Positions 7,124-58,093 of a stretch of 64,000 bases of DNA are shown here, piece after piece (the stretch's first letter is position 1; every line of letters starts with the position of its first letter). A program made the translations under genes and the position numbers. The notes below the pieces were generated by a model. It did not search any database. It saw only the letters and a list, made by a program, of their open reading frames with translations, and had not been told where the DNA came from. Origin of the DNA: Paraspadella gotoi. Taxonomy: Eukaryota > Animalia > Chaetognatha. The DNA lies in assembly GCA_051294375.1 (NCBI GenBank), contig JBJCIZ010000028.1:1363576-1427575 (forward strand). The letters run 5' to 3'.

Positions 7124-7535
7124 ATGATGCTTCCTTAAAAAATTGAACTTCTTCTCTTCCTCTTCCTCTCTTTAACTTTTGAGTCTTCCGCCCGCGAGCG
7201 CCACCATTCCCCACGCCCATGTGCCCTCTTCCTCCTCAAATCGCTCCTGCATTATCCATCACCCGCAACTCAACAAAGGCGCTCAGATCGAGACTCCGCC
7301 ACCTTCAACAGCATTGTCTCTGGCCGCACTGCGGTGTCGGCGCGCGACTGCGCCCACCTCTGCTGCGGACACCCCCAATGCACTCTCTCATGGTTTTTTT
7401 GGTCACCATGGCGTCTACGATGATGACAACAAGGAAGACCACGCTAACTGTTTCCTCCTAGACTGTTCTTCCTCCGTCTGTAAACTCCGCACTGACTTCA
7501 AAGAGACTGTGACGACAATCGAGCGACGAGATTGA
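7124..7535 (+). pseudogene. Frameshifted copy of the MANSC-only paralog
   Basis: As for 5179-5593; it follows the N-gap at 7025-7049. Confidence 0.5.
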
Positions 7536-29546: not shown

Positions 29547-29756
29547 TGTGGTGGTATATTCACACTGCCTAACGTCCACCATCGAGGGGGAACGCACCAT
29601 CCCAGGCGTTGCGTTCCATTCACAGTCCTAGAGACTTCCCTGTGCGTTGGAAAATCGAGACCGAGCCAGTGACAGGAGGCGCCACTGAGGGTCGGAAGCC
29701 CCTAAAGCCAACCGTGAGATGCCCCATTCCAATGGGCATCACAGGCTGTTGCCATA
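29547..29756 (+). mobile_element. Solo-LTR-like twister element, subfamily A, with P1 and the cleavage site deleted
   Basis: TGTGG...GCCATA flanked by TSD GTTT/GTTT and homologous to 49029-49283. It retains P3 and AGGG-T-CGG-AAGC-CCCT but lacks the TAA segment. Confidence 0.85.
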
Positions 29757-31777
29757 GTTTCATGTTTTGAGGTGTTTAGTCTTTATCAAAATCAAAGAAA
29801 GAACCAAAAAATAATAAATAAATTAAAATTAGCAACAAGGGGAGTTTGTCATTAATTTATCTTTCTCATTTAGTAGTTTTAAAAGCACGGACCAAAGAAA
29901 GTAATGCTGGCCATTTTAGCTGCCAAGGTTTTCATCTTTAAACTATAATTCCACTTCTTTAATCTCTGATAATCATAATAATAATAATAATAAAACTTAA
30001 AATATCGGTCAGCGATGTTTCCGATTTTATTGCGATAGTAGGGAACTAATTTTGGGCTCGACTGTTGGAGGTGATTTTGTGAGGATCACCTCCAACACCA
30101 CAAGAATCGACATTTCTTTCATTTGTCAACAAGTAGAATTTCAAGTCCCGAGAAAGGATTAGAATGGTCAAAAACCCAGAGATTTTAAGATTTCCCATGG
30201 ATCCTCTTGATACAAATGTGAGTCGGATAATAATCTTGATCCTTCAATATTTTAATCTTTGTTCTTTATTTTTCCAACAGTTAAGAATGCGTTTCGAATA
30301 CCCGAAAGCCCTATGTCTGTTAACATTGCAATATGCAAATTAGAATGAGAGTATGTCCTTTTTTTTTGCTTCTCTGCTCTACTTTTTCATCAATCCTTTC
30401 AAAACTTTTTCATTAATATAGTTAAATATTCTCCATGGTCTTACTTTAATTTAATATATAAATTAAAGTCTTTGTTAAAACTCCTCTAAAATGGTTGTCA
30501 GATGAAAACTGAAAATTTAAAAATTGTGTCGAAAATGAAATAAATACCGTGTCTACATTCGGGATAGTTATGAAACGTTCCAATCCTATTAATTTTAAAA
30601 TATTTAGGTTTTATTTATTGTAAAAGAATTATTTTTGTATACCCTTTAAATCGAGTTCCTTGGTATAAGTTTTAAAAAATTCTATTTTATTACATTATAT
30701 AATATTTTTATATTATACAGGAAGCGGAACCAAAACTTCCTTCGATTGTATATGATTATTATTTATGAACACCAGAAACCAGAATAAAAAAGAATCTTGT
30801 TCAAAAACTTATTTCGATTTTGGTTTCGTTATTATCGCCTTAATAATTTGTAAGATTTGGTTCCGCACATTGTATTATATCGGTCCGATTGTATAATAAT
30901 CATTATCCCCTTAGTAACCCCATGCACACAATAGTAAACTATACAATTTGTCACTCATTCCTCTGATCCTAATGATTATTAGAATTGATACGATCGCTAT
31001 CAGATTATCTCATTCACTCAATATTTTCTCTCTAACTCTCGCCATCCTATAGGAATCTCCCATTTTTAATTTAGAGAAGAATTATCGAGTTGTACGCCGC
31101 GATTCTTCATATTGCTCAACCCTTACCCCCATAGATATTATGAAATAAACAAACGGACGTGTATCTGGTTTAATTCAATTAAATTTAATTAAATTCTGAT
31201 TTCCGAACGTTTTCGCCGACCCCACTCTCAATTCTTTTAAATATATTTATCAATAATTCCTCCCCCCCCCCCGAAAAACCAACTACTACTAATCTTAAGA
31301 GGACGACTTTCGTTTCGTAATTATGAACTCAACACAAAGATGATGTGGTTTTGTTTATTTCCTATGGAATTATCATTATGAAAATAAAATCAGCGTCGTT
31401 TCACTTTTAACGCTGTCGACGCCTACGCTCTTTTATATATATATATATCTATATTTAAATTGCATGAATTAAAAGCTTCGCGGGTTTATAATTATTATTA
31501 AATAAACACGAGAGATTTTTTTTTGTTGAAAAAAAGTTGACTAAAAGATATTATATATCGCTGCGAGTTTCGGGCCTCCCTCAAAACTAATCATACTTTT
31601 GTTATTGCTGTTCTAGTTTTTTTAACAAGTAATTGTGGAACTGGAGATTATGTCAATGGATAAATAACTTTAAACAGTTTGAAATCTTCGTGGGGTTAAC
31701 TAGATAGGTTTTGAGAAACTTTGCTCATTCGCTTTCGATCTGGCATCGATTGGCATCAAGTGGCATCAAAAAGAAAG

Positions 31778-36105: not shown

Positions 36106-39100
36106 ATGAGGTTTTTTTCTTTGGCTAAACTTTTCCTCCTCCTCGCTTCCCTGAATTCCTTCGATCCGGCGTCGGCGGATTTCGGCGTCGTTTCCGGCGT
36201 CGTCGTCGGCGGCGGCGCCGCTATTATCGGCGGAATATGGAAGAGGAACGTCATCAAGGTAAAAAAGCCAGGAAGTGTCGATGACTTGAATTTAATTGAG
36301 TAGTTCGCCTATCATTGATATCAAAGTAGTAAGTGTTACCAATTGTAAGAAGTTTTATTTATACAGTTATTTTCGCGAATTGAACTCAAAACTATGCCGC
36401 TATGCCGACAAAAATAGTCAGATAGAACCTTAAACCAATCTGCTAATTTCCCTCATCTCCCACGTCTAAGCGCCAATCATCTCTTATCCCATTCACACCC
36501 CCCCCCCAACACTCCTCCACTCTTCCACAGTGCTCTTTTTTCGAATGCTGCGATCATCCCAACTGGCACCTGAAGAACTTAACTGGGCTGAAGGCGGCCT
36601 TTGGGGCGCAACTGTACGGGCAACACCTCGTCGCCAAGACGGTCTTCGATGCCCTGAGATCTCATCTCTCCAAGACTCGGGACAATCCCCCTTCGCATCC
36701 TCTGGGTAATGGGTATGGAATTTCTATCGCATCAATTCATTGATTGATTGATTAATTGATGAAATCATTTAATAGCGAAAATTATAATATTATTGCTCTT
36801 GAATGTCATACTACTTACTAACAACTACATACTTAAATGGTTAAAAGGAAAAATAAAATGAATAATTTTCTACATATATTTCGACACACGTTCTTTTGTC
36901 ATCTAAAGTTGACATAGCAAAAAAACACTTGTCCCATTATTCATATTCATTTTAATTTTTGGGAATGCAGTGTCAACAGTCAATAGTCAACAGTCGCTTG
37001 AAACAAGTTTTATTCACGCCGACGCCGGATTATTAGTTTATTAGTTCGATAATGAGAATTCTCTCTCCCTCCCTCTCTTCCTCTTCCCCACACAACCCCA
37101 AAGTTCTTTCCTTTCACGGTTGGACAGGATGTGGAAAGAACCACGTGAGCAAAATGATTGCGCAGCATCTTTTCAAAGAAGGACTCAAGAGTAAATATGT
37201 TGTCCAGTTCATTTCCACGCTACACTTTTCAAAGTGTTTGATAAGTAAGTCCACTTTGATAAAATTAATATTCCCCTAAAAGCTTTACTTTATCAAATTA
37301 AGACGTACAGATTGATCGAAAATAATCAATCCGTACAACTACGTATTATTTTTTGTGACGCTAGTTGGTAAAATGTTTTAAAATTTTGGAATCTCCGTAC
37401 CTTCATAAATTCATTTCCGCTGATCAGACGAACAGACGGAGCATAACGCCCTACTCCCCCCCAAATACCCCCTCCCAATGAAGATTCTTGCGCGGACGAG
37501 TCCCAATTGGCCGAGTACCGCGCATTCATCCAATCCCAGTCACGGAATGTCAGCACGCCCTCTTCATCTTCGACGAGACGGACAAGATGCCCGTCGGTCT
37601 CGTCGGAACCGTCGCCGCCTTTCTCGATCACCGCGACGCCGTCGACGGCGTCGACTTTAGATTCGCCGTCTTTCTCTTCCTTAGCAACGCCGGAGGCAGC
37701 GCCGTTGCTAAGAGAGCATTCGAGTTTTATAGGTGTTTAAAGAATCTGAGGGCTTGGGAGTTTGCCTTATTTCTATAACCTTCATAGAATATTTGGATGT
37801 CCAGTCCAATTTTTTTTTTTTCATTTTCAAATTGTCTTCATTATCTTCTCCTCTCTCCCCAAATTCTTGGTCGTCGACCTTACCTTACCTTACTTCCCAG
37901 ACTCGGCCGGCCTCGAGAGGAACTTACCCTCCGCGATCTCGAAGGCGCCATCGGCCTCTCAGTCTTCAACTCGGGCGAAGGAGGACTCAAACAAAGTTCG
38001 CTCATCGACCACAACCTCATCGATCACTTTGTCCCCTTTCTGCCGTTGGAGAGGAAACACGTCGAGTTATGCGTTAGGGATTATTTGGCGTGAGTGGCTA
38101 ATCAATTACGATGGTCGATGATTGAGTTAGGATTGCGCTTTTCTTGAAGGGTGGAGTTGGTTTCATTGCTGAATCCGATGATAATTATTTTCTTGCTGAG
38201 GGAGGAAAGCGGACCATGTTGTCAAATAAAATAAGAAAAGTTTGCCGAGTCATCGCCTGCACTGTTCAATTATTGATTGAGAAACAAGTGAAGTATTTTT
38301 TAGTGGGATCTGCAGATCCCGACTCTATAATTCACTTTGTCGGTCCGGCGGTCCGCCTCCTCACTTATATCGGGCATTCACTTATATCATGTCAGAACAT
38401 CGAATTATGATAAATTAATGCACAAAAATGATTCTCGTACCGATTTTAGGATTACTAACATAAATAATAGAATTTACTAATACTGTTATGCAAAAAAAAG
38501 TTTTCTATGGATGTCGCACTCTACCAGTAGTTGCTCTTTGTTCCAGATTTCCGTGTTGTCACAAGAAAGGACAAAAAGAAAAAACGGAAAAGCAGGATCC
38601 TTCCTGCTCTCCCCCTCACTGCTCTCCCCCTCTCAGATACTAGCTCAGCGAAGCGAACGCCACGAAAATCACTTTTTTGTTCACGACTTGTCGTTCCAAC
38701 GAGTTTGATTATTTTTTTGAAAATTTTGAAATTTTTTCTGGCCAATTTATTTTTTTGGAAATATTTGATTATCCATTTTTTTTCCCTTTCCGAGATTTGT
38801 TTCGAATTCAGTTGTTAATCTGCGAGGTCGTTTCGGTTTTTTTTGTCAAGATGTCGCGAGTCTCGCAAAAAAGCACCGAAAATCGAGCCCGCGTACAAGC
38901 GAGCGAGCGGGCCCCCCGAAAATTGGGTTCTGCACTCCGGAGCCGCCCGACCGTTTTAGGGGCCTGTCCCCCTCCTCCACCTCCCGTAACGGCCTCTGTC
39001 TCCCAGCGGGTGAACATAGCCGCTAGGGCGCCGCCGAGGTCCGCGACCTCGCTGGTCTTCCCTGCGGGCTCGAGGCCGGGCACCGACTCGCAAGGTGGTA

Positions 39101-42100
39101 GGGGAGAGGACGTGGTCATCTCGCCTACAAAGGACTCGGCCCTTAAGCGGTGAAACGAATCCATTGCATTATACAAGGAGGGTTCGCCTTCTTCAGCACC
39201 AGTGGGAGGAGTTTCAACGTTCCTTGCGCTCGGATAAGGCTTTCGTGGCAACGGTGGAGTTGAGTTCTCATTAATTTGGTGATTTTTGCCTTTTGCATAA
39301 CATTAGTGAAATTTTTCGATTATTTTCGCTCGCAGCAATTCGAACTTTGTCTTGTTTTTTGTTTATCCTCCGCCGCTCCTTGTTACTGGAGCAACTACGT
39401 TGGAGAAGGAGCGACATGACTAGAATCTTATCGGCTTCCACAATGGAACCAGGGATTCTTCATGGCCTCTCTCCACCACTGGTATCCCGCCGTCCACCCC
39501 TGGCAACCACCGTGGTGCGAAGGCGGCTTCGGGGGTTTTTTGTCCTTTTTGGGTTGCGCTATCTAACTAATCTTTTCTTTTTCCTTTTCATGTACGATGT
39601 TCATGCACTGATTCACTTTTGTCTCCGCATCAACCTTCTACTGCTGCCTAAGATTCGTTTCCAGTGGATCAAGTCCGCGCTTCTGCGCAAAGACATAGCT
39701 AATCCCCGGCTCTTCCTAAGCCGGATGGAGTTGTTCCCCTCTCAATGCCATTGCCACACCGACGAGAATTCCATCTGGTTCGGAGGAAAGGCGAACTCTC
39801 TCCACTTTCTGATGCTCCAGTGGGATTTGAGACTTTTATCCCAACGCAAGACTGCATCAGTTCCTTCGGAGTTGGGTGTGTCAGCAATGGAAGAGCTGCG
39901 TTCTGTCAGTTCTTCCGGGACGCTCGCCAAGGTTGGGAGCCCGGTCAAACGCAAGATCTTTTATGCCCGATGGGTTGAATGGATCTTCCCCTGGCCTGTC
40001 TTTGGAACCCTCCCATGAAGATACTTGTGGTCTCTTGCACAATTTGATGCCGTCTCCAAAGGATCGCAAATCGCCTGCTCTTTTCAAGCCAGCTCACTCG
40101 CATCTATTGAAGAGATGCAGGGGGCCGTTGCTCCATTCTGTCCTTATTCCACTGCAGAAGGCCTCAAGTCTCATCATTGCGTCTCTCAAAGCTTATGGCC
40201 CGAACTTATTTTGGCTTGGAGAAATTGGCTGCTCCACTCAAGAATCAGCTTCAATTGATCGGTCACCTATATAATTAATTCAGCTTTGGCTGAATCTCGA
40301 CGTCTGGTAGTGCAGTCTTCTCCGAAGGAGCTTTAAAGCTACACGACGGATTCCCCCCTCCTTTCCTTGTGGATTTTTATTTTGGGAATCGTTCGACGGA
40401 GGTTTCTTCTGCGGCTTACCATTCCTCTCTTTTCAAGGCTCAAGCTTTCGCCCCAGAAAGTAAGCACGCTCCGCGGAAGAAGTTTGGCCTAAGTCCAGGG
40501 TTCCTACAAGCCCTTATTCGCAAGTCCGCGTCCTTTAGGCGTTCGTAGAAAGGGGGTGGAGCGGCGTCGAAGGACTCGCAAATGGACTATCCTTTGACGC
40601 CCTGGACGTTCCGCCTCGTCGGCCACTTTGGGACATCAAAGACCATGGATCGTCCCAGGACTCGTTTTGTCTCTCACGGCACGTCTTCCACACATCCCGG
40701 TGGGAGGACGCTGCAACATTTCGTCCCCGTTTTTGGGGCGGATTTGGCGACAGGATTTCTCCTATTCTACCTGATTTCCTCATTGCAGGAGCAAACAGGA
40801 TCCCCTACCAGGATGCCTCTCCCTTCGGAACGAGACCCCTTCTTTTGGGACAGGGACTCTCTCATCGACGACGGAGATAGCGGCAGCTTTAGAAAAGGGT
40901 GCCGTGAGGAGGTGGAACCTTCTCCGGTATTACTACCAAGATTTTTCTGTTCCCAAAAAGATGGGGGATGGAGGCCGATTTCTAAATTGAAGTCCTTCAT
41001 TGCCCTCCTTAACTTTCCGATGGAAAGGTTGTCAGATGTTCGGAAGATGGTTCTTCCGGGGGACTGGGCGTCGTCTATCGATCTTCGCGACGCCAATCTC
41101 CACTTGCCTCTATCATGTGGATCATCGCAAGTTTTGTCGTTCATTTGAGAGGACGCGTTTATCTACAGAAGTCCTTCCTTTCGTTTTGGCACGGTCCGGC
41201 TTTCAGCCAAGAACGTATCTATATCGCCCGTTAGTCGTATGTCCAGAGGTTGTCTATTCAAGGTGGCCTTTTCTACATAGACGATATTCTGATATGAGCA
41301 TCGAAGAGGAAGTGCTGGTGAACACTGCTCAACAGCTCTTCGACTCTTGAAGAGAGTTCATCTATCCATCCCAAGAGTCAGGTCCTGGTTCCGACGCAAG
41401 TCTTTCAGTTCTGGTCCCAATGGGACGGGGCGCTTCATCGAGTTGCGCTCCCTTTGGACGAAGATTTTGTCCTTCGCGAGAATGGCCGACTCTCTCACTG
41501 CTAAGAGCCCACTCATCACCTTCAGGTTCTTCGTCCTGTGGGTCTTGGCGACCGCAGCCTCGTTGGCAGTTCCCTGCTCATTTCGTTGCAGAGCGGCAAG
41601 GATTCAACGCGACGTCAATCGTGTCTACCGCACGGAGAAGGGCTCTGGGGAAGACATCCTTCTTTCGGAGGCGGCGAGAGTGGAGCTACGTTTGGGATGT
41701 CAAAGCTCGACGATCCAGGATTGCTTTGCTTCCGATCGCCGATGTTTCAACCCGGATTCTTGCACGGCGGAAGTGACGACGGATGGCCTCCCAGAGGGTT
41801 GGGGCCTTCCTGTTTCGCGGGCTCTTCACCGGGGGAATTTTGGGAAGTTGTGGATACCATCTCCATATAACTGTGAGGAATGTTTAGTTCCCTGCGTTTC
41901 CTTCGTCAGCAATCCAGGGCTTGCAATCTTTTGGTGGAAAGACCGACAGCTTAGTGTCTTCTGGTTTGTCTCCGCCGCTCTGCAGCCGCTACAGGATCCT
42001 TCACGAAGTGTCAGGGATTCTCTCCTCTGAGCTCAGTCTCTGCAGATCAACAATTGTGGGACGCACATTTCATTAGGAGGAGAATTGATCGCGGATGCAG

Positions 42101-44226
42101 CATCTCGCGGAAGAAGCACGTTCAGGATTGGCATCTCCTTCACCCAAGTTTTTTCGACGGATTTCGACGCGTCTGGGATTTTTGCCCCAGAAAGATCTGT
42201 TTGCGACGGCGCTCCTCCCGTCAAGTTCCTCGCTACTTTCTTGGAAATGGAGGAGGACTCTCTCGGTCTGGATGCCTCAGTCAAGTTTGGATTTTCGACA
42301 GGGCTTACGTGTTTCCCCCTCTCACCATTGATCCCGAAGTGATCCTCAAGTTTGAGGGAGCCCAGGGGGAAGTTTCTTCTGGCGACGCCCTTTTGGGCCA
42401 GCCCAGAAGTGGTTCCCGTTGTTGTTGACTCTTCACGGGTGTTGTGAGGTTCTTCCGTCTGCCCGTGGTCTCGTCGATTGTGTTGGACAAAGCCACGGAC
42501 GCTCCTCCCAAGCTTCTCCGGATCGCCTCAAGTTGGATCGCTGGAGGAATTAAGAGGCGCACGGTCTCCAAGACCTCAACAACTCAGCTTTTTCCTCATC
42601 TCCGACAGCATGAAGACTACGGATCCCGTTACGAAACAGGGTTCTGGCGATGTTTGCTCCTTCCTTCAGCGTAGGGGCCTTACGGGACATCAGGCCGCTT
42701 TGAAGACGTTCTCTGAGTATCTCGCCCCACTTCAGCGACGACGGTCTGTCCTATACAGCACAGTGAATTTGCCACAGATCGGCTATCTCCGCTACTAGAG
42801 CTCCGGGAGTTCTCCAGTGGGTCCCAAATCCTTTGGTCTGCCGTTTCATTTGGGTGTCTTCCAAAAACGCCCTCCTTCGCGCAAGGAATGTTTCCCGCTT
42901 TTGGAGTGTCGCCGCAGTTCTGCGAGTTTTTGATACTTCGCGCTCTAACCCTATTTCTCCGGCTTCATGTTTTATGAGGAGTACAATTTTCCTCCTTGCC
43001 ATGGCCTTCAAGAGGCCTTCAGAGTTGGCTTCGCTTCGTTGTGGACCTGGTCACATGGATTTGGCTGCTGACCACGTTCGTTTTGTGCCTCCTCAATTGT
43101 CCAAGACTGATAGTTTTCGTCGTCTTGGTCCTGCTTTTCGTTTGGATAGACTGCAATGGCTTCAAGTCGTTCGCCCAGTCTCGGCTTTTGGCTTTGCTTC
43201 GTGTTCGTCAGGAATTTGCGACCACAGCACGATTTTCTCTTCACTCCCATCGCCTCCTTATGTCCATTATCTCTCCAGCCGTTTTTCATCGATTCCAAGT
43301 CGATCTTAAGAGATGCCGGACATCAACGCGCCCCTGGCTCGACAACAAGCGCTATTGGCTGTGTCGAAAGCTTTTGCAAGGGCGTGATCTGGACGTCATT
43401 CTCTTACGTGCAGGGGATTGGACTGGAGCACAGACCTTCTTTTGCCTTTCCTACTGTCGGAGTCGCGTGGAGTCTCTCTCAGATGGGTCTTGTGGACGAG
43501 TGATTTCGTGGCGTTCGATTCGCTGAGCTAGTATCTGAGAGGAGGAGAGCAGGAGGGGAAGAGCAGGAGGATCCGCTTTTCCGTTTTTCTTTTTGTCCTT
43601 TCTGTGACAACACGACATCTGAACAAAAGAGCAACCGTGGTGGAGAGGAGCCATGAAGAATCCCGGTTCCATTTGGAACCAATAAATTATAAGGATTTAA
43701 AATTTGTTAATTATATGTCCATAGGCAGCAAAAAAATAATGTTCAATCGCTCAATCTTTTCATCACTCCACCCTATTGAGTAAAGCCATCGGCTCATGAC
43801 CACCAGGTACCGGGTTCAATCCCAACCCGGTACCTTTACCCTGTGAGAAGCGTGAGGACGGCCGTAAGCCGCCATGGGGGGCGTGAAAAAACCTCAAGCC
43901 TGGTTCCAAGCCCAGGACCCGTTCCATGGCTGCGAGAGGAAAGTCATCTTCAGCCCAATTAGCGCCTCATCCACATTTCTTGTCGTGAAATTCCCAGATC
44001 GAAACGGATCGTGTTCGGTTCTCTTCGCAAATCTCCGTCAGGCGACGACGTCCTCACTTTATTCCCTTCGAAAGAAAATCAATTCGTGTCCAAAGTGTTG
44101 GACGAACTCGACTTCGACTCGTACGAACTTTACTCCGTCTCAGGATGCAAACGAGTCTCCGCCAAGGTCGAGGCGCTCCTCCCCGACTTCGAGGAACATC
44201 TCGTCAACAGTCCCTGGCGTCTTTGA
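36106..44226 (+). CDS. Torsin-family AAA+ ATPase; exons approximately 36106-36258, 36531-36705, 37104-37244, 37484-37732, 37901-38088, 43998-44226; apparent 1-nt frameshift near 37539
   Basis: Signal and hydrophobic N-terminus, ECC, LYGQHLV, Walker A SFHGWTGCGKN, Walker B FIFDETDKM, FLSNAGG, IDHFVPFLPLERKHV and sensor-II SVSGCKRV. Confidence 0.9.
38498..43685 (+). mobile_element. Degenerate DIRS1-like tyrosine-recombinase retrotransposon in the last torsin intron
   Basis: Frameshifted RT (KDGGWRPI, WASSIDLRDANLHLP, FYIDDIL near 41270), RNase H (VTTDG.PEGWG), methyltransferase-like (DLFA, AYVFPP) and tyrosine recombinase (IFLLAMAFKRPSELASL, AGDWTGAQTF) fragments. Inverted terminal repeats at about 38530-38673 and 43499-43635, ICR at 39389-39483. 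Confidence 0.9.
39389..39483. repeat. Internal complementary region (ICR) of the DIRS element
   Basis: Its first half is the approximate reverse complement of the left end (38498-38536). Its second half is the approximate reverse complement of the right end (43636-43685). Confidence 0.85.
43778..43951 (+). mobile_element. tRNA-derived SINE-like fragment with a partial twister-like module
   Basis: Anticodon-like loop CTCATGA, B-box GGTTCAATCCC inside an 11-bp hairpin (43806-43834), then CCTGG-T-TCC-AAGC-CCAGG and a distal GA-GGA. Confidence 0.45.
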
Positions 44227-44963
44227 AGAGGGCGTTGGAGACTCTCTCTCTCTGATCTCTCTCTTCCAAGACGCGAGGGTCCGCGATCTTTTGGAGGGAA
44301 CAACTTTTTTCTTTGTTTGTTTTTTTGGTCGACTTTCTCAAGTGATTAGCGGATCCGAGTCTTGCCTTAAAAACTGATTAAAAAATACACTTGGGCCTTG
44401 GTTTGTTGTTTGTTATGTTTTGTCATCAGTCGAAGGGTAATGTTATCGTTGAATTTCCTGAAGTCTAGCTAAAGATAAATGTAATTTTATTTTTTCAATT
44501 TTTAAACAATTGTTAAGAAATAAATTAAGTTTTGATTCGATCTCGATACTGCGATGACCTTTTTAAATTAGATAAACTTTCCCCTCTCGTTTGTGATATT
44601 TAATTATTGTTTAATGCTTATTAAGCATCAAGTTGTTAACGTCACATTCCTGAGCGTTACCAATCATCTTGCTTTTCTTCTCTCTTTTCGTCGTTTTTAA
44701 TATTCTTTTTCTTTTTTTTTTTAGAGTCAGAAAAAAAAAATTCGCATCTGATCAAAGATGTGAAACTCAAAGAGGAGTTAATGGGAAGGGGGCCTCTGGA
44801 CCAGTCTGACCAGTCTGGACAATCCCCTTCGCCCCTTCATCCCAGAGTCCTCAGCTAAAAAAAAAATATTAAAATCCTTACCCGATTGCTTGGAACAAAC
44901 CCACAAGTGCCATGACCAAATAACAACAACAACAAAAAAAAACATTACCGAATTACCTTACCG

Positions 44964-47900
44964 ATGATATTATACAAAGATTTTATTATGATTTGCTTAC
45001 AACGAATCGTTACGGGTCACCTCGCCTTTTTCCTCCTCCTCTTCCTCTTTACCTCCTTCTCTTCATCTTCTTCCTCTCTTCCTTCCTTCTCTCTCGACTC
45101 TGGACTTCATCATCTCGAACTCCTCCGTGTCGTCCCCTCCTCCTCCTCTTCCTCCTCCTCCTCCTCTCGATGGACCGAATCTCCAGAAACGAGCGAGCGA
45201 TTCGAGTGGCTCCCTCTTCGTCCTCATCGAGCGCCGGCCAAGGACGCCGCCTTGACTGCGCGCTGGGGATCCTTCGAGACTCGCGCCGACGTGGTGGATC
45301 CTCCTTCGGGGGCCAACGCTTCGTTCGGCGTCGGCGGCGTCCTCGTCACCGCCCATCCAGTCTCGCACGCCCTCGAAGAGGACGACCCCGTGCTGAGGGT
45401 TATCTTCCACGCCACGAGTCAACGGCGCCCATCTTGCTTCGATCTGCGGGATCCGGCGCCGACGTCTTGCCTGCTGGAAAAGCCCGTCTGCGTCTCGGCC
45501 GAGGCGGAGAGGGAGAGCGGGGCCGGATCGAGCGGCGTCGCCAGAGGCTCCTGCGTAATCGAGAACGACGCCGATAAGCCGATGGCCTGTCTGATGGAAG
45601 CGAAGGCACCTGTCGCCTGGTGGAAGGAATCAGGCGACGACCACGACTTTTTCGTTTCTCTTCGATTCGTCGCTTTTTACGTCGAAGATCCTAAAACCTG
45701 CAGCGCCTTCTCATTCGAGGATAACAACAACAACAATCTCGACCGCAACAGCCTCTCACCGAAACGTCGAGCCCGCGACAAGAAGGGTCGCTCCACGACC
45801 GACAAAAATGTCGTCTCCTCGACCGACAAACGACCTGGCTCCGTTTTCCCTCCGCTCACGACCGACAGCGTTCGTCTGCCCATCGTTTGGTCCGAAGCCG
45901 ACGTTGAAGCCGACGACAATTCTCGAGACGAAGACGTCTACGTTCGCGTTCCTACCGACGTAATCCGCCCGGGGACGACGGTCCACGCCGCGGTGACGCT
46001 AAGACGCCACGCCCACCTGGCGGAGTTTGGTATTCGCGTCAAAGTCAAACGCGGACTTGAAATTCTCGCCGCTGAAATCGTTAACGATGAATGGGATTTG
46101 ACGGAAATGAGTCGAAATCAAGGAGGGACTTACTTGGCGGCGAAGTTGAAGAGAAAAGACGGCGATCGTCGCCAAGACGGCGATCGTCGCCAAGACGGCG
46201 ATCGCCGCATCCTCGTCGTCTCCTTCTCCGCGACGAAGGAGACGCCTCTTCGTCGCCAAGACGACGCCGTCGACGAGGTCCGCGTCGCGTGGACGATCGA
46301 ATTCGACGCGAATCGACGCCGCAACGTCAGTCAAACGTCTCTGCGTCTCGCGCCGGACGCCGTTCGAGCATTGACGCCGGTCGTGAAGACACGGCGTCTT
46401 TTGAACACGGCCCTGGTTGACGGTAACGCCGTCATCGAGCCATTGCGCGTCTTTGCCGTCTTCTTCGGCGGAGGAGTTGAAGACGTGACCTCGAAGGCGA
46501 CTTGTTATTCTGAGAGAGAATCGGCGCTCAAGGCGTCGCGATCTTGCGATTCTCTTTACTTTGATGGAACCGAGACTCACGGATTTTCTAACGTCACAGT
46601 ATTGGCAAAGTATTCGCGGTATTTGGGCTACGCGACGATCTCGGTTTGGGTGCCGCGCCTACCGATGAGGATTCTCGTCTCCGACGTTGAGCTGAACCCG
46701 ATTCGAGGCTGGAAGGCGCCGAGGGAAAAAAGCGGCGTCGGCGGCGCCAAATCAAAACCCGCCTGCGCGCCGAAATATCAAGAGGCGACATTGCGAGTCT
46801 TGGCGAGATTCTTAACCAATGGCGCCGTCGCCGGAGGAGCGTCGATTAATGGGCGTGACGACGACGCCGTGGAATGGCTTCTCGAAGATGGCGCCTTTCT
46901 CGACGTGACATATCGCGTCAAATCGGACGTGACGTCTCTTGACCCGAACGTCGTCATCCTGACCAAACCACGCGCCGCCAACGGTCCCCTCGTGTTGACG
47001 GGCCGTTCCCCTGGTCGCACCAAGATCAGGGTTGTTTCTCCCTTCAGCGGTCGAGTCGTCGCTTCCACTTCCGTCTCCGTCTCTCCCGATCGAGTCGACC
47101 TCATCGGCAGCCGAGTCGCCGTCGTCGCCGGCCTTCACCTCTTCGCCCTCGAGCGCCGCGTGTCGTCCGGGCTGCGGCTACTCGACGCCAGCCTCACGCG
47201 GTTCCATCGCTTCGAGGCCCCTGGTGGCGAGGGCGGTCTCGACGTGTCGCTGCTCTTCTCCGACGGCGCGGCGTTTCCGCTGCAGCTGGTGCCGCCGCGG
47301 GATTATTCGTTGTACGTCAATTCTCTCGCCAAGGACGTCGTCGCCATTTTGGAGAGAGAGAGAATGGGAGGGGAGAAAGAGGAGGGGAAGACGACCACGC
47401 CCACGTTGATCGCAACGGGAAGGGGAGGAGGGGATTATCTCTACGTCTCTCTAGATTCGTCAGGTTGGGGAAGAGGGGGGAAGGGGACTGGAATGTGGGG
47501 ATTATGGGTTTTAAGTGGCATTGGGTATTAATGGGAATCGGGGATTTATGCGAATCGGTGAACTATCAGCGAAATTCATGTATTGAATTTTTAAAAAATA
47601 ATCGTAGCAAATTGGTACAACCAATATAACAATTATCCACACGTTCAGCTATAATGGGACAGGCTCTAATGGACTAAGGCCACCATCCTTAATAAAATAA
47701 CAGTAGAATCCTTCAAGCTTTTAAGAACGACTCTAGTTTAAGAACAGTCTTGACCAGCTTCATCTCATTCTCGTTCCCAGCGGAATGCTCGGCGAAGCGG
47801 CGTCAGGGCGTCGACGCCTTTTGGTTGCCACGCCCACTCACGGCGGATTACGTGGCGGTCGCCGTCGGCGGTGGAGTCGACGACTACAATCTGGGCCTTG

Positions 47901-50900
47901 GACCAGGTGGGTCAAGAGATGGAATACATTGTGGCGAATCCTAAATTCGCCTCCCGTATAGCGTGGTGAAACTAAGCTCGTCCCATTGGCTTGGACAGCT
48001 AAGTACTCGTTCACCAACCGTGTGATGGTGTCGGCATAACCGCGCCAGTGACTGGATGTATCACTGAGAGTCGGAAGAACCCAAAGCCAACAGTGAGATG
48101 CCCCATCCCAATGGGCATCACAGGCAACCCGGCTGTTGCCATAACATGTTAAATGTCCATCTACTTACCTTCCCTTACCTCTCATCCAACCCCACCTCCT
48201 CTCCGCAGAACCCTGGGGGGCGGGGGATGAGTTCGACGGTTTCCTTAACGACGGCGGCCACGACGGTTACCTCTGGGCTCCGGAATTGGGTAAGGAATTG
48301 AATATAAACAATTATAATATCTTATTATACTATCTTAACTAGTATACTATATCACCTTTTCTTTAATATTGATGAAATAACAATTCATTTATAAACCTTT
48401 ATTTTCGTTGTGCAGCGACAAGCGAGATTTAGTGAAAAGTTTGAAATTTTATTTTAACAACGAATTTTAAGATTAAAACCTAAAATATTATTAACTTAGG
48501 CGAGAAAGCGACGAAGAAGACGCAATCGTCTAAAAGCGAATTCGCCAAATCCAGATCTTCTTACGCTTATCAAGAATTCTCAAATCTCGGCGCAGTCAAG
48601 GTGGGTGTTTGTTGTATGTAGGTGTGTGCGCGCGTGTGCACGAAATATTCTCTTTCTCTTTTCAATGTGCTTCTTTTTCTATTCCCATCTCCTCCCATCA
48701 CCTTTCTTCTTCCATCTCCTCCCAACTCAGGAATCCCGCGAGGGTCAAAAGTTTTTCTCCGGCGGACGAATTTCTTCTTTCGGCGAATCAGATTTTCAAG
48801 TCGACAAAGGTTGGGAGTCGAAACGCGTCAAGGATCCTCAGGTCGGTCTGTCAGTCTGCATTCGATCCCCTTAGCTTTAATTTATTTCATTTCCCCTTCT
48901 GGTTTTTACATTACATACTCTAACATTTAACTAAACTTTTTTGTCTACTTTTTACTTCTCTCTTCTTCATCTATTTGTATACTTATATATTTTTTTCCTC
49001 TTTAAGTATATTTTCAATTCTCTAGTATTATGGCAACAGCCGGGTTGCCTGTGATGCCCATTGGGATGGGGCATCTCACTGTTGGCTTTGGGGGCTTCCG
49101 ACCCTCAGTGACGCGTCCTGTCACTGGCGCGGTTACCCTCGGACGGTCTCGCTTTGCCAACGCAGAGGGAAGTCGTTAGGACTGTGGATGGAACACTACG
49201 TCTGGGATGGTGTGTTCCCCCTCTGTGCCAATGGGATTGACTGAACGATGGTAGATGTGAGGCGGTGTGAATATACCACCACAGTAGATTCATTCCCCCC
49301 CCCCAAATCTTTTTCTTAACTCCTTTCCCCGCACCTCTATCTATCACCACTAACGATCACCAATTAGATTAGATTAGATTATCTTTTCCTTTCTCCATTC
49401 CCCATTTCTCCTTTCACTTCCTCAGGACTTTTTCCTGAGCGGCGTCTCGGCCAAACGCGTTGTCCGCCCTTCGAGAGACAGGAGCGGCTTCGGCAGCGGC
49501 GGTAGCCTCTCCGTCGCAGAGGTGGCGCTGTACGTGCTGCTGGGGATTTTCTGCGCGTCGGCCTGCGTCTTGGCGCTGCACTGCGCCGCCCATCGGATGA
49601 AGAGCAAGAGGTGATAAATAGTAGAGGAAAAAAGAGCAAATGTGGAGGGATATGAAAAGAGAAAGTTAGACACATAAATAGAAAGGAATCCAGAGAAAAG
49701 GAGAAAAGCAAATGAACAGAAGTAAAGTATTTAAGGAAAGCAAAACAAAGTAAAGGCTTTATCGCTTACAAACGCCATCTCCCTTTCACGGAATTCCTAA
49801 TCGTCCTTCCCTTCCCCCCTCCCTTCCTCCCCTCCCTTCCCCCCCTCCCTTCCTCCCTCCATCATCCCGAACAGCCTCGTCATCAAAATCGCTTCGCCCT
49901 CCAAACGGGAGACGGCCGCTTCCCCCGTCGTCAATTACAACAACAACGACGACAACGACGACTCGGATTCCGCGACCGAAGACGCCGACGACGACTTCGC
50001 TCGCGTCCCTCACGAGTTCGTCTGGTTGAGCAAAGAGCAACTGGAGGAGCAGCGCGGCGCCGCCGAACTTACGCAGCGCCTGATGCCTGAAGCGGAGTTC
50101 GTGGCGCAGACGCTGGAGAGAGATTTGCCACCTCATCATCCGGGTCCGCTGCCTGGATCGAGGGGGAACTCGAGGTTTGTGGCCGTGAGGGGAAGCGGGG
50201 GGGGGGAGGGTTAATGGAATTGTTTGGTTTCTGTTTATAAGTTAATCGTTTATTAAGTTTTATACGGACGATGGATATTATCTTTTGAATTTTCGAGAGA
50301 TCTTAATTTGTTAATAATTGAATGCGATTCTGGAAGTATTGATTAAATTGTAGTCTGTGGCAACGGGGGGACATGTGTGATGCCCTGGGTGTGAAGCATC
50401 TCCCGACAGCTGGCGCTCAGGGCTTTGGGCCTGCAGTGACCACCCCATGTCACTGGCGTGTTTATGCCGACACCATCACACTTTAACCAGCGTAACCGTG
50501 AGGGGATTGAACCCCGAACTCAAGGTTGGTGAACGAATACTTAGCTGTCCAAGCCAATGGCACTAGCTGAGTTTCACCAAGCTATATGGGAGGCGAATTT
50601 AGGATTCGCCACAAGTCGGGCAAAATAAACTTTAGGGTCCCGGTCCATTCATTCAATCACACACTCTCTCTCTCTCCCCCTTTCCCCCCCAAAAAAAAAC
50701 ATCATAGATCGAGCTACTCTGCCCGACCAGCGTCTCACTCTCATCACCGACCGACCAACGGTTGTCTCTCTCTCTCTTCGGCCTCTCACCATCGCGGGTC
50801 GTTGCCCGAATGTCATCAACGATCGCGAGCTTCGTCGGTCGCTTCCTCGGCTGCTGCGTCAATCGCGTCCGCTGCGGCGTCGGCTGCCGCTTCCGCCGCG

Positions 50901-52374
50901 TCGGTGTCGAGGATGTCGCGTCGATCGATGGAGGAGGCAGCGGCGGTGGCTGAGGAAGTTGGGGTGGAGGCAGAGAGGAACGAGTTTAGGTTCGGAAGGG
51001 GAAAGGGGGGGATGGTGGTTTTGATGTGGTGGAAGGGAGTTTAGGTTCGAGGGGGAAAGGGGGGATGGTGGTATTCGTGTGGTGGAAGGGAGTTTAGGTT
51101 TGGAGGGGGGATGGTGGTATTCATGTGGTGGAAGGGAGTTTAGGTTCGGAGGGGGAAAGGGGGGGATGGTGGTTTCATGTGGTGGAAGGGAGTTTAGGTT
51201 CGGAGGGGAAAGGGGGGATGGTGGTATTCATTTGGTGGAAGGGAGTTTAGGTTCGGAGGGGGAAAGGGGGGGATGGTGGTATCATGGTGGAAGGGAGTTT
51301 AGGTTCGGAGGGGGGATGTGGTATTCATGTGGTGGAAGGGAGTTTAGGTTCGGAGGGGAAAGGGGGGGATGGTGGTATTCATGTGGTGGAAGGGAGTTTA
51401 GGTTCGGAGGGGGAAAGGGGGATGGTGGTATTCATTTGGTGGAGGGAGTTTAGGTTCGGAGGGGAAAGGGGGGATGGTGGTATTCATGTGGTGGAAGAGA
51501 GTTTAGGTTCGGAGGGGGAAAGGGGGGATGGTGGTATTCATGTGGTGGAAGGGAGTTTAGGTTCGGAGGGGGATGGTGTATTATGTGGGTGAAGAGAGTT
51601 TTAGGTTCGGAGGGGGAAAGGTGAGGGATGGTGGTTTTCATGTGGTGGAAGGGAGTTGTCGTTGTTTGTTACAATATAGACGTGTTTCGAGGGGATAGTG
51701 TTGAGCTTTCATCAGCGAAAAGTGAAACTGTACATGTAATTTAGTTAAAACAAAAACGAAGGTTATGTTTAACTGATATTAACTGATATTAATAATATAA
51801 TATAATAATATAATATATAATATAATATAATATAATATAATATAATAATATTAACTGATATTAATAAAACTTTTCTAAACAGATCCGCCCGTCTCGACTC
51901 TCCCGACCGCCAGGGGTCTCTCCGCAGCCACGACTCGTTCCGCTCGACGCCCAGCGACGCCTCCTCTCTTCTTAGCGTCACCCTCAATCCGCTGGACGAC
52001 GCCGCCTTCGCCGGCGTCGTCGAAAGCGGCGTCGATTGCGGCGCCGTCAAGACGCCTTCGTCGATGTCGCCGAGTTCGGATCCGCCAGGTACGGGCGCCG
52101 CGGCGGGGATCAATAAAATTTATCGTTAAATTTAAAAAGAAATAAACATTAAAAAAATGTATCGATAAAAGGAAATTGAAAAAGGAAAAAAATGTAATGA
52201 ATACAAGAAAACTTAAATAAAAAAACCATTCCCGCAATTATTTGTTTGCTCTGTTTTCTTTCAGAAAAAATAAATAAATAAAAAAAAGTTAATAGATTTA
52301 TATGTCGGGAATGAATGAAAGAGGGCGGGTCTCTCTCTCTTCTCTCTATTATCCCTTCCCCCACCTCTGCCTCT

Positions 52375-52416
<42 letters not shown>

Positions 52417-55508: not shown

Positions 55509-58093
55509 ATGGGTCAGTTCATGACGACACAGCGCGGCGGCGCCGGCGCCGCTGCCGGCTCCGGCGGCGACGACCTCCCCTGGTGGTTCAAATACGTCGG
55601 TCGGGGATTCGGGATCCTCGGCGGCGTGGTGGCCGTCATCCTCGGCGCCCTCAACTGCATCTCCATCACGGCCAAGTGCATCGTGTCCGGACTCTGGCTC
55701 ATGACGGCCGGACTCGCCGCCCTCGTTCTCGAAGCTCCTTGCTGCTTCGTCTTCTTCGATTTTGGAGACAAATTGGCCAGATGGTCGGAGAGCAGGAAGG
55801 GATGGCACAAGGTCTTGCTTTATATGGGTGAGTTGATGGTCAGAGAGCAGGAAGGGATGGCACAAGGTCTTGCTTGAGATGAGCGAGTTGATGGTCGGAG
55901 AGCAGGAAGGGATGGCACAAGGTCTTGCTTTATATGGGCGAGTTGAAGTTGGGGTAGAGCCGGATTGGGGTCTCTCACTATTTGCATATTCCAGCATATT
56001 CTAGTAATAACAAATTTAGTGAATCCTTAGTTTTTATCGAGAATCCCAACTTTTTGTATAGTTGAATAATTGTGAAACTTAAGGAGAAAGAGAAAGACTT
56101 CTGCTGTTGTTTCTTTGTTTTCATTAAATGCTGGAAAAGTTATTGATTCAGTTGACCAGGCGAGATGTTCAGAACTTAATTATATAATTAAGTTTTGTGG
56201 CGGTAGATTCACACCGCCACACTTCCGACTACATTCAGCCAACCCCAATGGGTCAGAGGAGGAACATGCGTTCTAACCACAGTCCTAACAACTTCCCTCT
56301 GTGTTGGCATAGCGAGACCGTCCTAGGGTAACCGCGCCAGTGACAGGAGGCGTCACTGAGGGTCGGAAGCCCCGAAAGCCAATTGTAAGATGCCCCATCC
56401 CAATGGGCATCACAGGCAATATAGTTTAAAGGTTAAATAGAAAGTGATTTCGCTCACTAGTTATTCTGACAAAAGCTATCACACTAATATACATACAATT
56501 GAAACATTCATTGAAAAATTATACCACTTCATTGATAGGGAAGCCAGGTACTCTGGGAGTGAATAAACGAGACTGTGAGAGAGTCTTGATTAAAAGCTTG
56601 GAGAGACCTGCTGTGATGGAGGCCTTAAACCACCAAAGCCTGTCCAAAGTCAGGGGCAAGATAGCTTATTTATTAAATGAATTGATAATTTTTATATTGG
56701 TTGTACCAATTTCATACATGTGGACATAAACCTGAGGACTTTAAAGAAATTCTACTAATTAAACTCCCTCTCCACCTCTCCACCCCCGACTCAAGTCCTC
56801 TCCATCCCTGCGGTGATTATCTACCAAGGACCCCTCGTCATCGTCGGATCGGCGGCGCTCTTTCTCGCCGGCGTCGCCTACGGACTCACGAGTCTCGGCC
56901 GGAAGGCGTCGCGCGAGGAGATGGCGGAGAAGGCGAGGGAGTTCGATCGCGATCTGGACGGGCTCAAGCTGGTCTTCGCCGAGAAGCGGCCCGCCACGGC
57001 CGATGCTGCACCGGGTAACCAGAAAGAGAAAAGGGATGGCAGAGAATTAATTATTAGTTAAGTTATTCATTCTATCTTTCCGTTTTTTTTTTAATCTCCC
57101 AGGCCTGACCGGCGACGTCGTCCTCGACACGCCGTCCTCCGTCGTATCCACGACCCCCGCGCCGCTCGGAGGCGGCGGAGGCGGCGACGCTGCCCCCGCG
57201 GCGGCCGCCTCGGATCGCGGCGCGGCGGCGTCGGCGTTCCCAGTCCGCGGCTCCGCCTACTCTCCGCTGCAGAACGAACCCAACACTCCGTCGTCGTCCT
57301 CTGCGCCGGTGGTGATGTCGCCCTTCGACTTCGAGTCGCCGGGTCCGTCGCCGGCCAGACCTCCCGGTGAGGAAAGGAGGCTGGGCTCTGCTCTAAAACC
57401 TCATTCTATAGATTTTAATTGTATAGTTATATGTATAGTTATATTGTATAGTTGTAGTTAAATAGAAATTAAAAAATAAATTCTGGAATGTGGAGTTTAA
57501 AAATTCAAAAATCTTCGTAACGAGTTTCAGAGTAAGAATGTCTTGATTCTTCAACAAGGTTAATAACAATAAGAGTCAAAAGTTGTATACTGTATAATGT
57601 ATAGACTTAGCATCTGAGCCTTTTGACTCTTATTGTTAGAGTAAAGTCATTTTTACTCTAAAAGAAAAGTCGAAGATTTTTTATTTTTTTAAATCATTAT
57701 TTCATTTCAATGACAAACTCATCCAAATTCTGGGGCAGGATAGCTTATTTATTTAACGAATGGATAATCTTATATTGGTTGTAATTTTCAAAAAGCAATG
57801 ACCAAAAAAAAAAAAACAAAAACAAAACAAAACAAAAAACCGCAAAACAAGGAGAACCTTTTTTTCTAAATTCTCCTCCAGCGACGACGGCGACGAAAGA
57901 GTTCAAACTGGCCGAACCCAGCGCCTCCTTCAGCTTCACCGCCGACGTGGATCAACCCTTCGCCAACCCGCAGCCGCTGCAACAGCCACAACAGCAGCAG
58001 CAGACGGCGACGCCCCACTTGCCGCCTCCGCCGCAGCAGCACCGGACGCGATCCGGCGTCGGCGCCGCCACGCCCAATCTCATCAACTTTTAA
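55509..58093 (+). CDS. CACFD1: Calcium channel flower homolog; exons approximately 55509-55827, 56795-57013, 57103-57367, 57882-58093
   Basis: PWWFKYVGRGFGILGG..GALNCISI..CIVSGLW..LEAPCCFVFFDF..GWHKVLLY, then AGVAYGLTSLGRKA, typical of Flower, followed by a long Pro/Gln-rich tail. Confidence 0.88.
55780..55945 (+). repeat. Three 55-bp tandem copies of the Flower exon-1 end and its splice donor
   Basis: GATGGTCGGAGAGCAGGAAGGGATGGCACAAGGTCTTGCTT(TATATGG|GTG)AGTT repeated at about 55780, 55835 and 55890. Confidence 0.9.
56196..56423 (+). mobile_element. Solo-LTR-like twister element, subfamily A, in Flower intron 1 (sense orientation)
   Basis: TGTGGCGG...ATA with a small 3' deletion; TSD GTTT/GTTT. 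Confidence 0.85.
56304..56382 (+). ncRNA. Twister ribozyme motif, type P5 permutation (predicted cleavage between 56329 and 56330)
   Basis: UUGGC-aua-GCGA-GA-CCG-uccuaggg-U^AA-CCGC-GC-CAGUGAC/GUCACUG-a-GGG-U-CGG-AAGC-CCC-gaaa-GCCAA. Confidence 0.8.

What the first reader, a model, noticed from the sequence alone, without database searches (positions are those of the whole stretch)
29547..56423. Family of LTR-like mobile elements carrying twister ribozymes (candidate animal twister retrozymes)
Seen: five 210-258 bp elements (29547-29756 +, 47930-48143 +, 49029-49283 -, 50356-50613 -, 56196-56423 +). They begin TGTGG, end (CC)ACA/ATA, are noncoding and hairpin-rich, and are flanked by 4-bp TSDs (GTTT, ACAT, GTAT/GTAG, AGTC, GTTT). 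Three contain a complete type-P5 twister arrangement: P2'-GA-T1'-P1-UAA-P2-GC-P3-P4-Y-T1-AAGC-P4', closed by P5. Established: TG...CA ends with short TSDs mark LTR-integrase products, and plant retrozymes are non-autonomous LTR elements whose LTRs carry hammerheads that release circularising RNAs. Inference: these are solo LTRs of an analogous non-autonomous retroelement that uses twister rather than hammerhead, in a metazoan. I do not know of a described example, but could not search.
Basis: partly seen in the sequence, partly recalled or inferred. Interest (0 to 1): 0.95.

Follow-up and report, generated by a model that had tools for sequence, protein, structure and literature searches.

The report
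Animal LTR elements carrying twister ribozymes
Two related families of short, many-copy jumping DNA in an animal genome carry a twister-shaped RNA motif predicted to cut itself, and are likely lone end-repeats of a retrotransposon that would copy itself through RNA circles, a strategy described so far for such elements only in plants and with another ribozyme.

Summary
Confirmed and extended. The five elements have 4-bp TSDs (4 of 5 exact). They form two families about 60% alike (E1/E3/E5; E4) plus one chimera (E2), and most end TG…TA, not TG…CA. E3, E4 and E5 hold a full P5-permuted twister layout: 3 descriptor hits in the window against 2 in 310 Mb of null sequence; 7 of 22 pairs change on both sides. 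Rfam gives only a sub-threshold twister-P1 match. Contigs of public runs show very high depth and many unlike flanks at exact termini, so both families are dispersed and many-copy. E2 switches family inside the three-base cut site yet has an exact TSD, which suggests RNA ends made by the ribozyme. A box-B motif upstream points to Helenus-type TRIMs; two published wasp Helenus LTRs show, by eye, the same layout with an unremarked hammerhead. Best reading (0.6): solo LTRs of a Gypsy-mobilised twister retrozyme. Not shown: cleavage, paired LTRs, PBS/PPT, circles. No twister-bearing LTR element turned up in seven paper searches, and the scan's notes hold none.

The parts
29547..29756 (+). E1, E3-type element, 210 bp; a deletion of about 14 nt removes P1, the cut site and part of P2 (dead ribozyme); TSD GTTT
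   Evidence: no descriptor hit
47930..48143 (+). E2, chimera: E4-type 5' part, E3-type 3' part; T1, T2 and P2 broken; lacks the box-B segment; TSD ACAT exact
   Evidence: 5' part 86 of 93 identical to E4, 3' part 97 of 104 identical to E3; diagnostic columns
48037..48039 (+). E2 family switch, confined to the shared TAA that holds the predicted cut site
   Evidence: last E4-type letter just before, first E3-type letter just after; longer shared blocks of 11, 10, 8 and 7 nt were not used
49029..49283 (-). E3, full-length 255-bp element of the more abundant family, antisense in a TMEM132 intron; TSD 3 of 4
   Evidence: fold z -3.0
49081..49161 (-). E3 twister, type P5 with closing P5 stem; predicted cut between 49135 and 49134; predicted general-base G at 49148; A.C mismatches in P2 and at the base of P4
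   Evidence: weak Rfam twister-P1 match
49183..49230 (-). E3 degenerate Pol III-like segment: box-A-like stretch (49230-49220) and a T-loop-like hairpin (49197-49183); weak
   Evidence: T-loop-like hairpins in E1, E3, E5; the strict box B regex is negative in E3; family letters at 49226
50356..50613 (-). E4, full-length 258-bp element of the second family, antisense in a TMEM132 intron; TSD AGTC exact
50409..50491 (-). E4 twister, type P5, all core pairs intact; predicted cut between 50464 and 50463; predicted general-base G at 50477
   Evidence: weak Rfam twister-P1 match
50503..50513 (-). E4 box-B / T-arm-like motif GGTTCAATCCC, about 40 nt upstream of the cut site
   Evidence: this strict motif occurs at 2 places in 128 kb of both strands
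56196..56423 (+). E5, E3-type element, 228 bp, shortened near the 3' end, sense in an intron of a Cg6151-P (Flower-like) gene; TSD GTTT
   Evidence: (spliced joint 55826-56795); fold z -4.1
56303..56383 (+). E5 twister, type P5; predicted cut between 56329 and 56330; one mismatch in P2 and one at the base of P4

Best explanation
The elements are two many-copy families of about 255-bp repeats with TG...TA ends, 4-bp target duplications and a P5-permuted twister layout, and are likely solo LTRs of a non-autonomous, Gypsy-mobilised miniature retrotransposon (a twister retrozyme of the Helenus/TRIM type). Shown: the ends, the TSDs, the dispersal, the covarying twister layout, a box-B motif in one family, and no T4 run on the sense strand. 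Inferred: an internal Pol III-type promoter in the 5' LTR starts a transcript that runs through PBS, internal region and PPT into the 3' LTR. The twister in each LTR cuts at U^A near position 150 and leaves a unit-length RNA with 5'-OH and cyclic-phosphate ends and no R repeat. Ligation gives a circle. A Gypsy reverse transcriptase primed by a tRNA copies across the ligation point and rebuilds the LTR, and its integrase inserts the product with a 4-bp TSD. Solo LTRs come from short cDNAs or from LTR-LTR recombination. E2 would be a rare copy made across the join of an E4-type RNA 3' end and an E3-type RNA 5' end; its mismatched ribozyme could not spread.
For: Descriptor: 3 hits in the window, all in elements, against 2 in 309.8 Mb of null. 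On alignment A2 (5 rows) 88% of cells pair against 26-43% when slid, and 7 of 22 pairs change on both sides (P2 x2, T1 x2, P1 x1, P4 x2; 0 of 500 shuffles). The loop residues of Rfam's twister consensus (UAA, GC, AAGC, GA) are kept in both families at 61% overall identity. Across run contigs the letters that differ in 10% or more of depth fall, within the ribozyme core, only in the P1 and P3 loops (E3 family) and at the Y position, where nearly all E4-family depth reads the usual U. P1, P2 and basal P4 mismatches are tolerated in natural twisters (PMC11662667 section 32). Loose ends pile at the four termini (X1: 100, 54, 81 and 61 records at 49029, 49283, 50358, 50613) with unlike AT-rich flanks, agreement 0.40-0.47: fixed ends, no tail, no 5' truncation. 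E2 switches family within 3 nt at the cut site and has an exact TSD, so it was chimeric before insertion. Animal Helenus TRIMs give 4-bp TSDs, use Gypsy-like PBSs and often survive as solo LTRs (PMC10886601). Helenus-2_SyJa and -2_SyUm LTRs show by eye TGTGG, a degenerate box A, a box B and then a type III hammerhead, with PBS and PPT inside. Plant retrozymes give the R-less circle model, 4-bp TSDs and many solo LTRs (PMC4918200; PMC9695139).
Against: Rfam twister models stay far below gathering and no twister-P5 row appears. Nested folding prefers other structures over the twister skeleton by 9-10 kcal/mol in all three copies (pseudoknots not scored), and P4 has pairing probability 0-0.17 in the whole element. 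Covariation rests on two lineages, and the structure was drawn from these sequences. No PBS follows and no PPT directly precedes any of 5 copies. The loose-end consensus at the termini shows no shared internal sequence, and the head-to-tail joint 50613->50358 has only single-locus depth (2 contigs in X1, 3 in X3, 1 in X9), which neighbouring insertions explain as well. The E3 family has no strict box B, neither family has a canonical box A, and ARAGORN finds no tRNA. E2 is one event, and no E3/E4 joint at the cut site is among the 15 of 132 joints shown.
Confidence: 0.6

Rival explanations
1. Same TRIM and active twister, but no circle: cleavage sets the 5' and 3' ends of a linear RNA and reverse transcriptase jumps between the ends over 0-3 nt of homology.
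For: E2's junction at the cut site fits a jump to a cut end as well as a ligation; no circle was observed.
Against: LTR reverse transcription normally needs an R repeat, and plant retrozymes solve this by circularising (PMC4918200 section 11).
Confidence: 0.12
2. They are solo LTRs of autonomous Gypsy or BEL retrotransposons that carry a twister in their own LTR, for RNA-end processing or cap-independent translation.
For: The ends and TSD are the same as for a TRIM. Twisters head autonomous non-LTR Perere-3 elements and allow translation (PMC8501958). No internal region was seen either way.
Against: A box-B motif and the wasp Helenus parallel point to a short Pol III-type unit. No Gypsy ORF was recognised in the 19 ORF translations scanned, chosen from 95 listed.
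Confidence: 0.11
3. The 255-bp unit is the whole element: no internal region exists, and tandem or ligated units are copied and integrated directly.
For: 5 of 5 copies stand alone; no shared internal sequence at the loose ends; a head-to-tail joint exists at low depth.
Against: No primer site is apparent in the unit. High solo fractions are normal for TRIMs and retrozymes (9 full-length among hundreds of loci, PMC9695139; Ajax 1114 LTRs against 151 internal parts).
Confidence: 0.08
4. They are DNA transposons (MITE-like, for example of the Ginger/TDD kind with TG ends and 4-bp TSDs; that trait is recalled, not from a call) carrying a fossil twister as a passenger.
For: Short, non-coding, hairpin-rich, many copies, 4-bp TSD; the twister is not the minimum-energy fold.
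Against: The terminal inverted repeats are only 5-7 matches in 12 nt. A passenger would not keep both pseudoknots by compensatory change across two families, nor switch family at the cut site.
Confidence: 0.06
5. They are tRNA-derived SINEs (non-LTR, target-primed) with an internal twister.
For: Box-B motif; twisters are known in non-LTR elements (PMC8501958; PMC7761336).
Against: Constant 4-bp TSD, both termini exact, no tail or repeat end; the cut lies mid-element, not at the 5' end as in Perere-3.
Confidence: 0.03

Closest known systems
Plant LTR retrozymes (Cervera, Urbina, de la Pena 2016, PMC4918200; passages and Discussion read)
   Same: Non-coding LTR-type unit with a self-cleaving ribozyme inside, in the permutation that leaves its open helix in line with the transcript; 4-bp TSD; many solo LTRs.
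   Different: Twister instead of type III hammerhead; animal host; about 255 bp instead of 300-400 bp; Pol III-type motif; PBS, PPT and circles not shown here.
Helenus TRIMs / TRIMp3 (Kojima 2024, PMC10886601; main text parts 1-4 of 6, supplement parts 1 and 5-9 of 11, two motif searches)
   Same: Animal, 4-bp TSD, TG starts including TGTGG, some TG...TA ends, box-B motif in the LTR, solo LTRs. Helenus-2_SyJa/SyUm show by eye the same order: terminal hairpin, degenerate box A, box B, ribozyme, 3' hairpins.
   Different: No twister was seen by eye in the parts read; four L4-P4 motif terms and two element terms gave 1 occurrence, not a twister. The paper mentions no ribozyme in Helenus. The tRNA likeness here is much weaker, and many Helenus LTRs have a T run after the tRNA part, which these lack.
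Type-P5 twister ribozyme (PMC5408937 passages; Rfam clan CL00120)
   Same: P1, P2, P4, both pseudoknots, UAA, GC, Y-NNN-AAGC and GA in P5-open order.
   Different: P1 cut to 2 bp with a 4-nt loop; T1 letters differ from Rfam's CCC/GGG; a 7-bp P3 identical in both families; below Rfam thresholds; activity untested.
Twister variants of Perere-3 / RTE non-LTR elements (PMC8501958 passages; PMC7761336 passage)
   Same: A twister carried by an animal retroelement, thought to set RNA ends.
   Different: There it is P1-type at the very 5' end of an autonomous LINE, with the TSD forming P1; here it is P5-type in the middle of an integrase-type unit.
Animal non-LTR retrozymes (PMC7761336 and bioRxiv 10.64898/2026.07.22.740005, passages)
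   Same: Short non-coding animal repeats with a ribozyme.
   Different: Type I hammerhead, tandem arrays, Penelope-derived, no LTR ends.

Membership tests
Twister ribozyme, type P5 | P1, P2, P4 and pseudoknots T1 and T2 in P5-open order | tested here: met
   E4 no mismatch; E3 and E5 two stem mismatches, both pseudoknots intact; E1 and E2 broken
Twister ribozyme, type P5 | conserved L1/L2/L4 residues including the general-base G and the cut-site A | tested here: met
   against the consensus printed and PMC5408937
Twister ribozyme, type P5 | Rfam covariance-model score at gathering | tested here: not met
   best 16 bits (twister-P1) against 67.2; no twister-P5 row (only the best of a clan is listed)
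Twister ribozyme, type P5 | site-specific self-cleavage | not testable with these tools
   bench test
LTR retrozyme | 4-bp TSD and LTR-type termini | tested here: met
   (TG...TA rather than TG...CA)
LTR retrozyme | type III hammerhead in the LTR | tested here: not met
   no CUGANGA core on either strand in 0 of 5 copies; a twister stands in its place
LTR retrozyme | two LTRs enclosing PBS, non-coding region and PPT | tested here: inconclusive
   0 of 5 copies in the window; contig joints and loose ends uninformative; no genome
LTR retrozyme | unit-length circular RNA in vivo | not testable with these tools
   only contigs were available
Helenus (TRIMp3) | box B (GGTTC) in the LTR | tested here: inconclusive
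   met in E4; only T-loop-like hairpins in E1, E3, E5; deleted in E2
Helenus (TRIMp3) | box A (TRGCY...YGG) and a recognisable tRNA-derived sequence | tested here: inconclusive
   degenerate matches only; ARAGORN 0 genes; no Rfam tRNA row
Helenus (TRIMp3) | 4-bp TSD in animals | tested here: met
   host genes AFF4, TMEM132, MANEC
Helenus (TRIMp3) | full length under about 1 kb with PBS and PPT | not testable with these tools
   no genome held
MITE of a DNA transposon | terminal inverted repeats of 10 bp or more (threshold recalled) | tested here: not met
   4-7 matches in the first 12 nt

The most novel reading that the evidence does not exclude
Animals have their own LTR retrozymes: Pol III-driven TRIMs that swap in whichever self-cleaving ribozyme is at hand (twister here, type III hammerhead in gall-wasp Helenus-2), use it in place of a terminator and R repeat, travel as small circular RNAs on Gypsy machinery, and can ligate across families at the cut site, as E2 records. 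This would give twister a defined circle-making role in a eukaryotic genome and an animal source of viroid-like twister circles.
Probability: 0.5. Interest if true: 0.85.

Novelty: new variant of a known kind. Interest (0 to 1): 0.72.

Why it matters
LTR retrozymes are described mainly from plants and always with hammerheads, and animal retrozymes as non-LTR and Penelope-derived. Twister has thousands of tested examples, but in the passages read its only assigned retroelement role is at the 5' end of LINEs. An animal LTR element with a twister would show that the retrozyme design is independent of ribozyme class and kingdom. It makes two open questions testable at low cost: whether an R-less LTR RNA is copied from a circle, where heterologous chimeras like E2 give a genome-wide footprint, and whether genomic retroelements can seed twister-bearing viroid-like circles. 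The wasp Helenus-2 LTRs offer a second system with known PBS and PPT.

Tried and rejected
No whole genome was held, so copy number, paired LTRs and a Gypsy partner could not be searched. Rfam at gathering gave 0 hits in the window; at E up to 10 on 47700-50900 no twister row. ARAGORN found 0 genes. Pattern scans found no relatives: metagenome contigs 0 and 0, viral contigs 0. The run search listed no RNA holder on record; X9 behaves as RNA because its contigs join exons, but contigs cannot give ends, strand or level, so its element depth is not used as evidence of expression or cleavage. Summed contig depth (up to 1.5 million on E3 and 0.33 million on E4 against 66 on the intron between, X1) is not a copy number; it is used only to say that the repeats are abundant. 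E3 and E4 as the two LTRs of one element: rejected (different families, own TSDs, host exons between). Purine runs upstream of E1 and E3 as PPT: rejected (separated from the TG end by the TSD and host letters). Orientation bias: the two antisense intronic copies keep the family core, while of three plus-strand copies two are dead; too few to use. P5 was left out of the pair count because E4's 5' arm is one column out of register in A2. The scan's own notes gave nothing by sequence or place. The host's phylum was not determined.
Full report
1. Observation. Four of five have an exact 4-bp target duplication and the fifth 3 of 4 letters; per copy an exact match has a chance of 0.003-0.009, and no longer duplication fits. 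All begin TGTGG. E1-E3 end GCCATA, E4 GCCACA and E5 is shortened near its end. They are not one family: E1, E3 and E5 are 84-91% alike, while E4 is 57-61% alike to them. The host is an animal (AFF4, TMEM132, MANEC domains). E3 and E4 sit antisense in TMEM132 introns that a spliced contig of run X9 skips, and E5 sits sense in an intron of a Cg6151-P gene.

2. The twister. A descriptor for the P5-open order (P2', GA, T1', P1, UAA, P2, GC, P3, P4, Y, T1, AAGC, P4') hits three places on both strands of the window: E4 with no mismatch, E3 and E5 with one mismatch in P2 and one at the base of P4. Markov sequence of the elements' own composition gave 2 hits in 309.8 Mb at this tolerance and none without mismatch. 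A 6-bp P5 closes each. On the five-row alignment, 7 of 22 pairs change on both sides (two in P2, two in T1, one in P1, two in P4), 0 of 500 shuffles reach that, and sliding the partners drops pairing from 88% to 26-43%. Only two lineages stand behind this and the structure was read from these sequences, so the figure supports the fold but is not a probability. Contigs of three runs show that the core is a family trait: letters differing in 10% or more of depth fall only in the P1 and P3 loops for the E3 family, and for the E4 family mainly at the Y position, where nearly all depth reads the usual U. The two A.C mismatches of the E3 family show no such variant, so they are shared by the family. 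A high-throughput test of natural twisters found P1, P2 and basal P4 flaws tolerated and pseudoknot flaws not (PMC11662667, section 32 part 1); P1 is dispensable (PMC5408937 passages). Against: Rfam gives no hit at gathering and only a partial twister-P1 match of 14-16 bits against 67.2, with no twister-P5 row. ViennaRNA, which scores no pseudoknots, prefers other folds by 9-10 kcal/mol. E1 has lost P1 and the cut site; E2 has broken T1, T2 and P2.

3. Dispersal and ends. No genome was held. Nine runs of three studies hold the stretch; X1 may be the source sample. On 48990-50640, 12,272 contig pieces of X1, 4,144 of X3 and 626 of X9 were laid, nearly all on the two elements, with summed depth up to 1.5 million on E3 and 0.33 million on E4 against 66 on the intron between (not a copy number). 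Loose ends gather at the exact termini (X1: 100, 78 and 58 records at 49029, 49028 and 49026; 54 at 49283; 81 at 50358; 61 at 50613; 24 of 1,190 rows shown) with unlike AT-rich flanks. So each family has many insertion sites, hundreds for the E3 family by these rows alone, with fixed ends and no tail. The stop at 50358 followed by TA shows that the E4 family also ends CCATA. Fixed ends, a constant 4-bp duplication and inverted repeats of only 4-7 matches in 12 nt fit LTR integration better than target-primed insertion or a MITE. TG...TA ends and TGTGG starts occur among published Helenus LTRs (read by eye).

4. The chimera. E2 is 86 of 93 identical to E4 before the TAA and 97 of 104 identical to E3 after it. 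The last E4-type letter is the one before TAA and the first E3-type letter the one after, so the switch lies in the three bases that hold the predicted cut, although the families share blocks of 11, 10, 8 and 7 nt elsewhere. A uniform switch point would land there about 4 times in 250 (my arithmetic, one event, noticed after the fact). Because E2 has an exact TSD, it was chimeric before it was inserted; recombination between two inserted neighbours would leave unlike flanks. The simplest account is inference: an E4-type RNA 3' end was joined to, or copied on from, an E3-type RNA 5' end, both made by the ribozyme. No such joint is among the 15 of 132 shown, so it is not a many-copy subfamily as far as shown.

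5. Promoter-like part and the Helenus link. E4 has GGTTCAATCCC about 40 nt upstream of the cut, a motif found at 2 places in 128 kb; E1, E3 and E5 have a T-loop-like hairpin at the matching place but no strict box B; box A matches are degenerate; none of 5 copies has a T4 run on the sense strand, which is not rare at this length. ARAGORN finds no tRNA. Kojima's Helenus TRIMs are animal non-autonomous LTR elements with a tRNA-like Pol III promoter in the LTR, 4-bp TSDs, Gypsy-like PBSs and frequent solo LTRs (PMC10886601). Reading six of eleven parts of its supplement by eye I saw no twister, and six motif terms gave one unrelated occurrence. Two gall-wasp LTRs, however (Helenus-2_SyJa, -2_SyUm), show TGTGG, a degenerate box A, box B and then a complete type III hammerhead, with PBS and PPT in a 1039-bp element; the paper uses 'ribozyme' and 'hammerhead' only in its reference list. 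This was not checked with a tool. It is the same layout as here with another ribozyme, and it is the strongest outside reason to expect an internal region that I could not see.

6. Mechanism. Shown: termini, TSDs, dispersal, twister layout with covariation, the E2 junction, a box B in one family. Inferred: transcription from the 5' LTR, cleavage at U^A in both LTRs, an R-less unit RNA, circularisation, reverse transcription by a Gypsy partner across the join, and integration; this follows the model given for plant retrozymes (PMC4918200 Discussion). High solo fractions are usual (9 full-length among hundreds of loci in N. benthamiana). Missing: no PBS or PPT beside any of 5 copies, no shared internal sequence at the loose ends, a head-to-tail joint at single-locus depth only, and no data on RNA ends or circles. 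I give this reading 0.6; the linear-jump, autonomous-LTR, unit-only, MITE and SINE rivals 0.12, 0.11, 0.08, 0.06 and 0.03.

7. Prior art. Seven full-text searches listed no paper on a twister inside an LTR or TRIM; I judged most hits from the listing and abstract start and read passages of thirteen papers. In those passages LTR retrozymes are hammerhead elements primarily of plants and animal retrozymes are non-LTR, twisters are tied to Perere-3/RTE LINE 5' ends, and insect type III hammerheads are mentioned as work in preparation. The library lacks most subscription papers, the original twister list was not seen, and Repbase and Dfam could not be searched, so the repeat may already have a name without its ribozyme being noted. 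Supplements of the bioRxiv preprints were not opened. Relatives were not found in metagenome or viral contigs, and the scan's notes hold no look-alike; the one note returned by words concerns a Penelope-type hammerhead element.

8. Verdict. A real, abundant and well-structured feature. It works like an LTR retrozyme but fails membership on the hammerhead and is untested on PBS/PPT and circles; it is a probable twister that Rfam misses and a possible Helenus-type TRIM. New variant of a known kind, interest 0.72.

Noticed in passing
PMC10886601 supplement DataS1, Helenus-2_SyJa-LTR and Helenus-2_SyUm-LTR: Both gall-wasp LTRs contain, by eye, a complete type III hammerhead (GUC triplet, 7-bp stem I, CUGAUGA, 4-bp stem II, GAAAC, 12-nt complementarity of loops I and II) downstream of box B; the element is listed as 1039 bp with tRNA-Trp PBS and 4-bp TSD. 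The paper's main text names no ribozyme in Helenus. Not run through any tool.
   Followed up: partly
window 56493-56716: A second very abundant dispersed repeat 70 bp downstream of E5 (summed depth 1.4 million in that bin in X1, loose ends at 56493, 56613 and 56715-56716); partial copies near 47609-47637 and 57722-57783. No clear TIR or TSD.
   Followed up: partly
window 38530-43685: A 5-kb segment with about 140-bp inverted terminal repeats and a further inverted arm pair (39441-39479 / 43637-43675), a DIRS-like layout (family name recalled); ORFs are in pieces and Pfam gave nothing significant.
   Followed up: partly
window 2460-11680: Tandem duplications of a unit of about 1.9 kb (97-98% alike) carrying copies of a MANEC-domain gene.
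   Followed up: no
window 50982-51657: Minisatellite with a period of about 52 bp inside a TMEM132 intron.
   Followed up: no
E3 and E4, P3 hairpin (49129-49109; 50455-50434): The 7-bp P3 stem is identical in both families although P3 is optional and variable in twisters; it may have another role.
   Followed up: no
runs X1 and X3, joint 50614->49030: A single-locus contig where an E3-type copy is followed within about a dozen letters by an E4-type copy in the same orientation.
   Followed up: no
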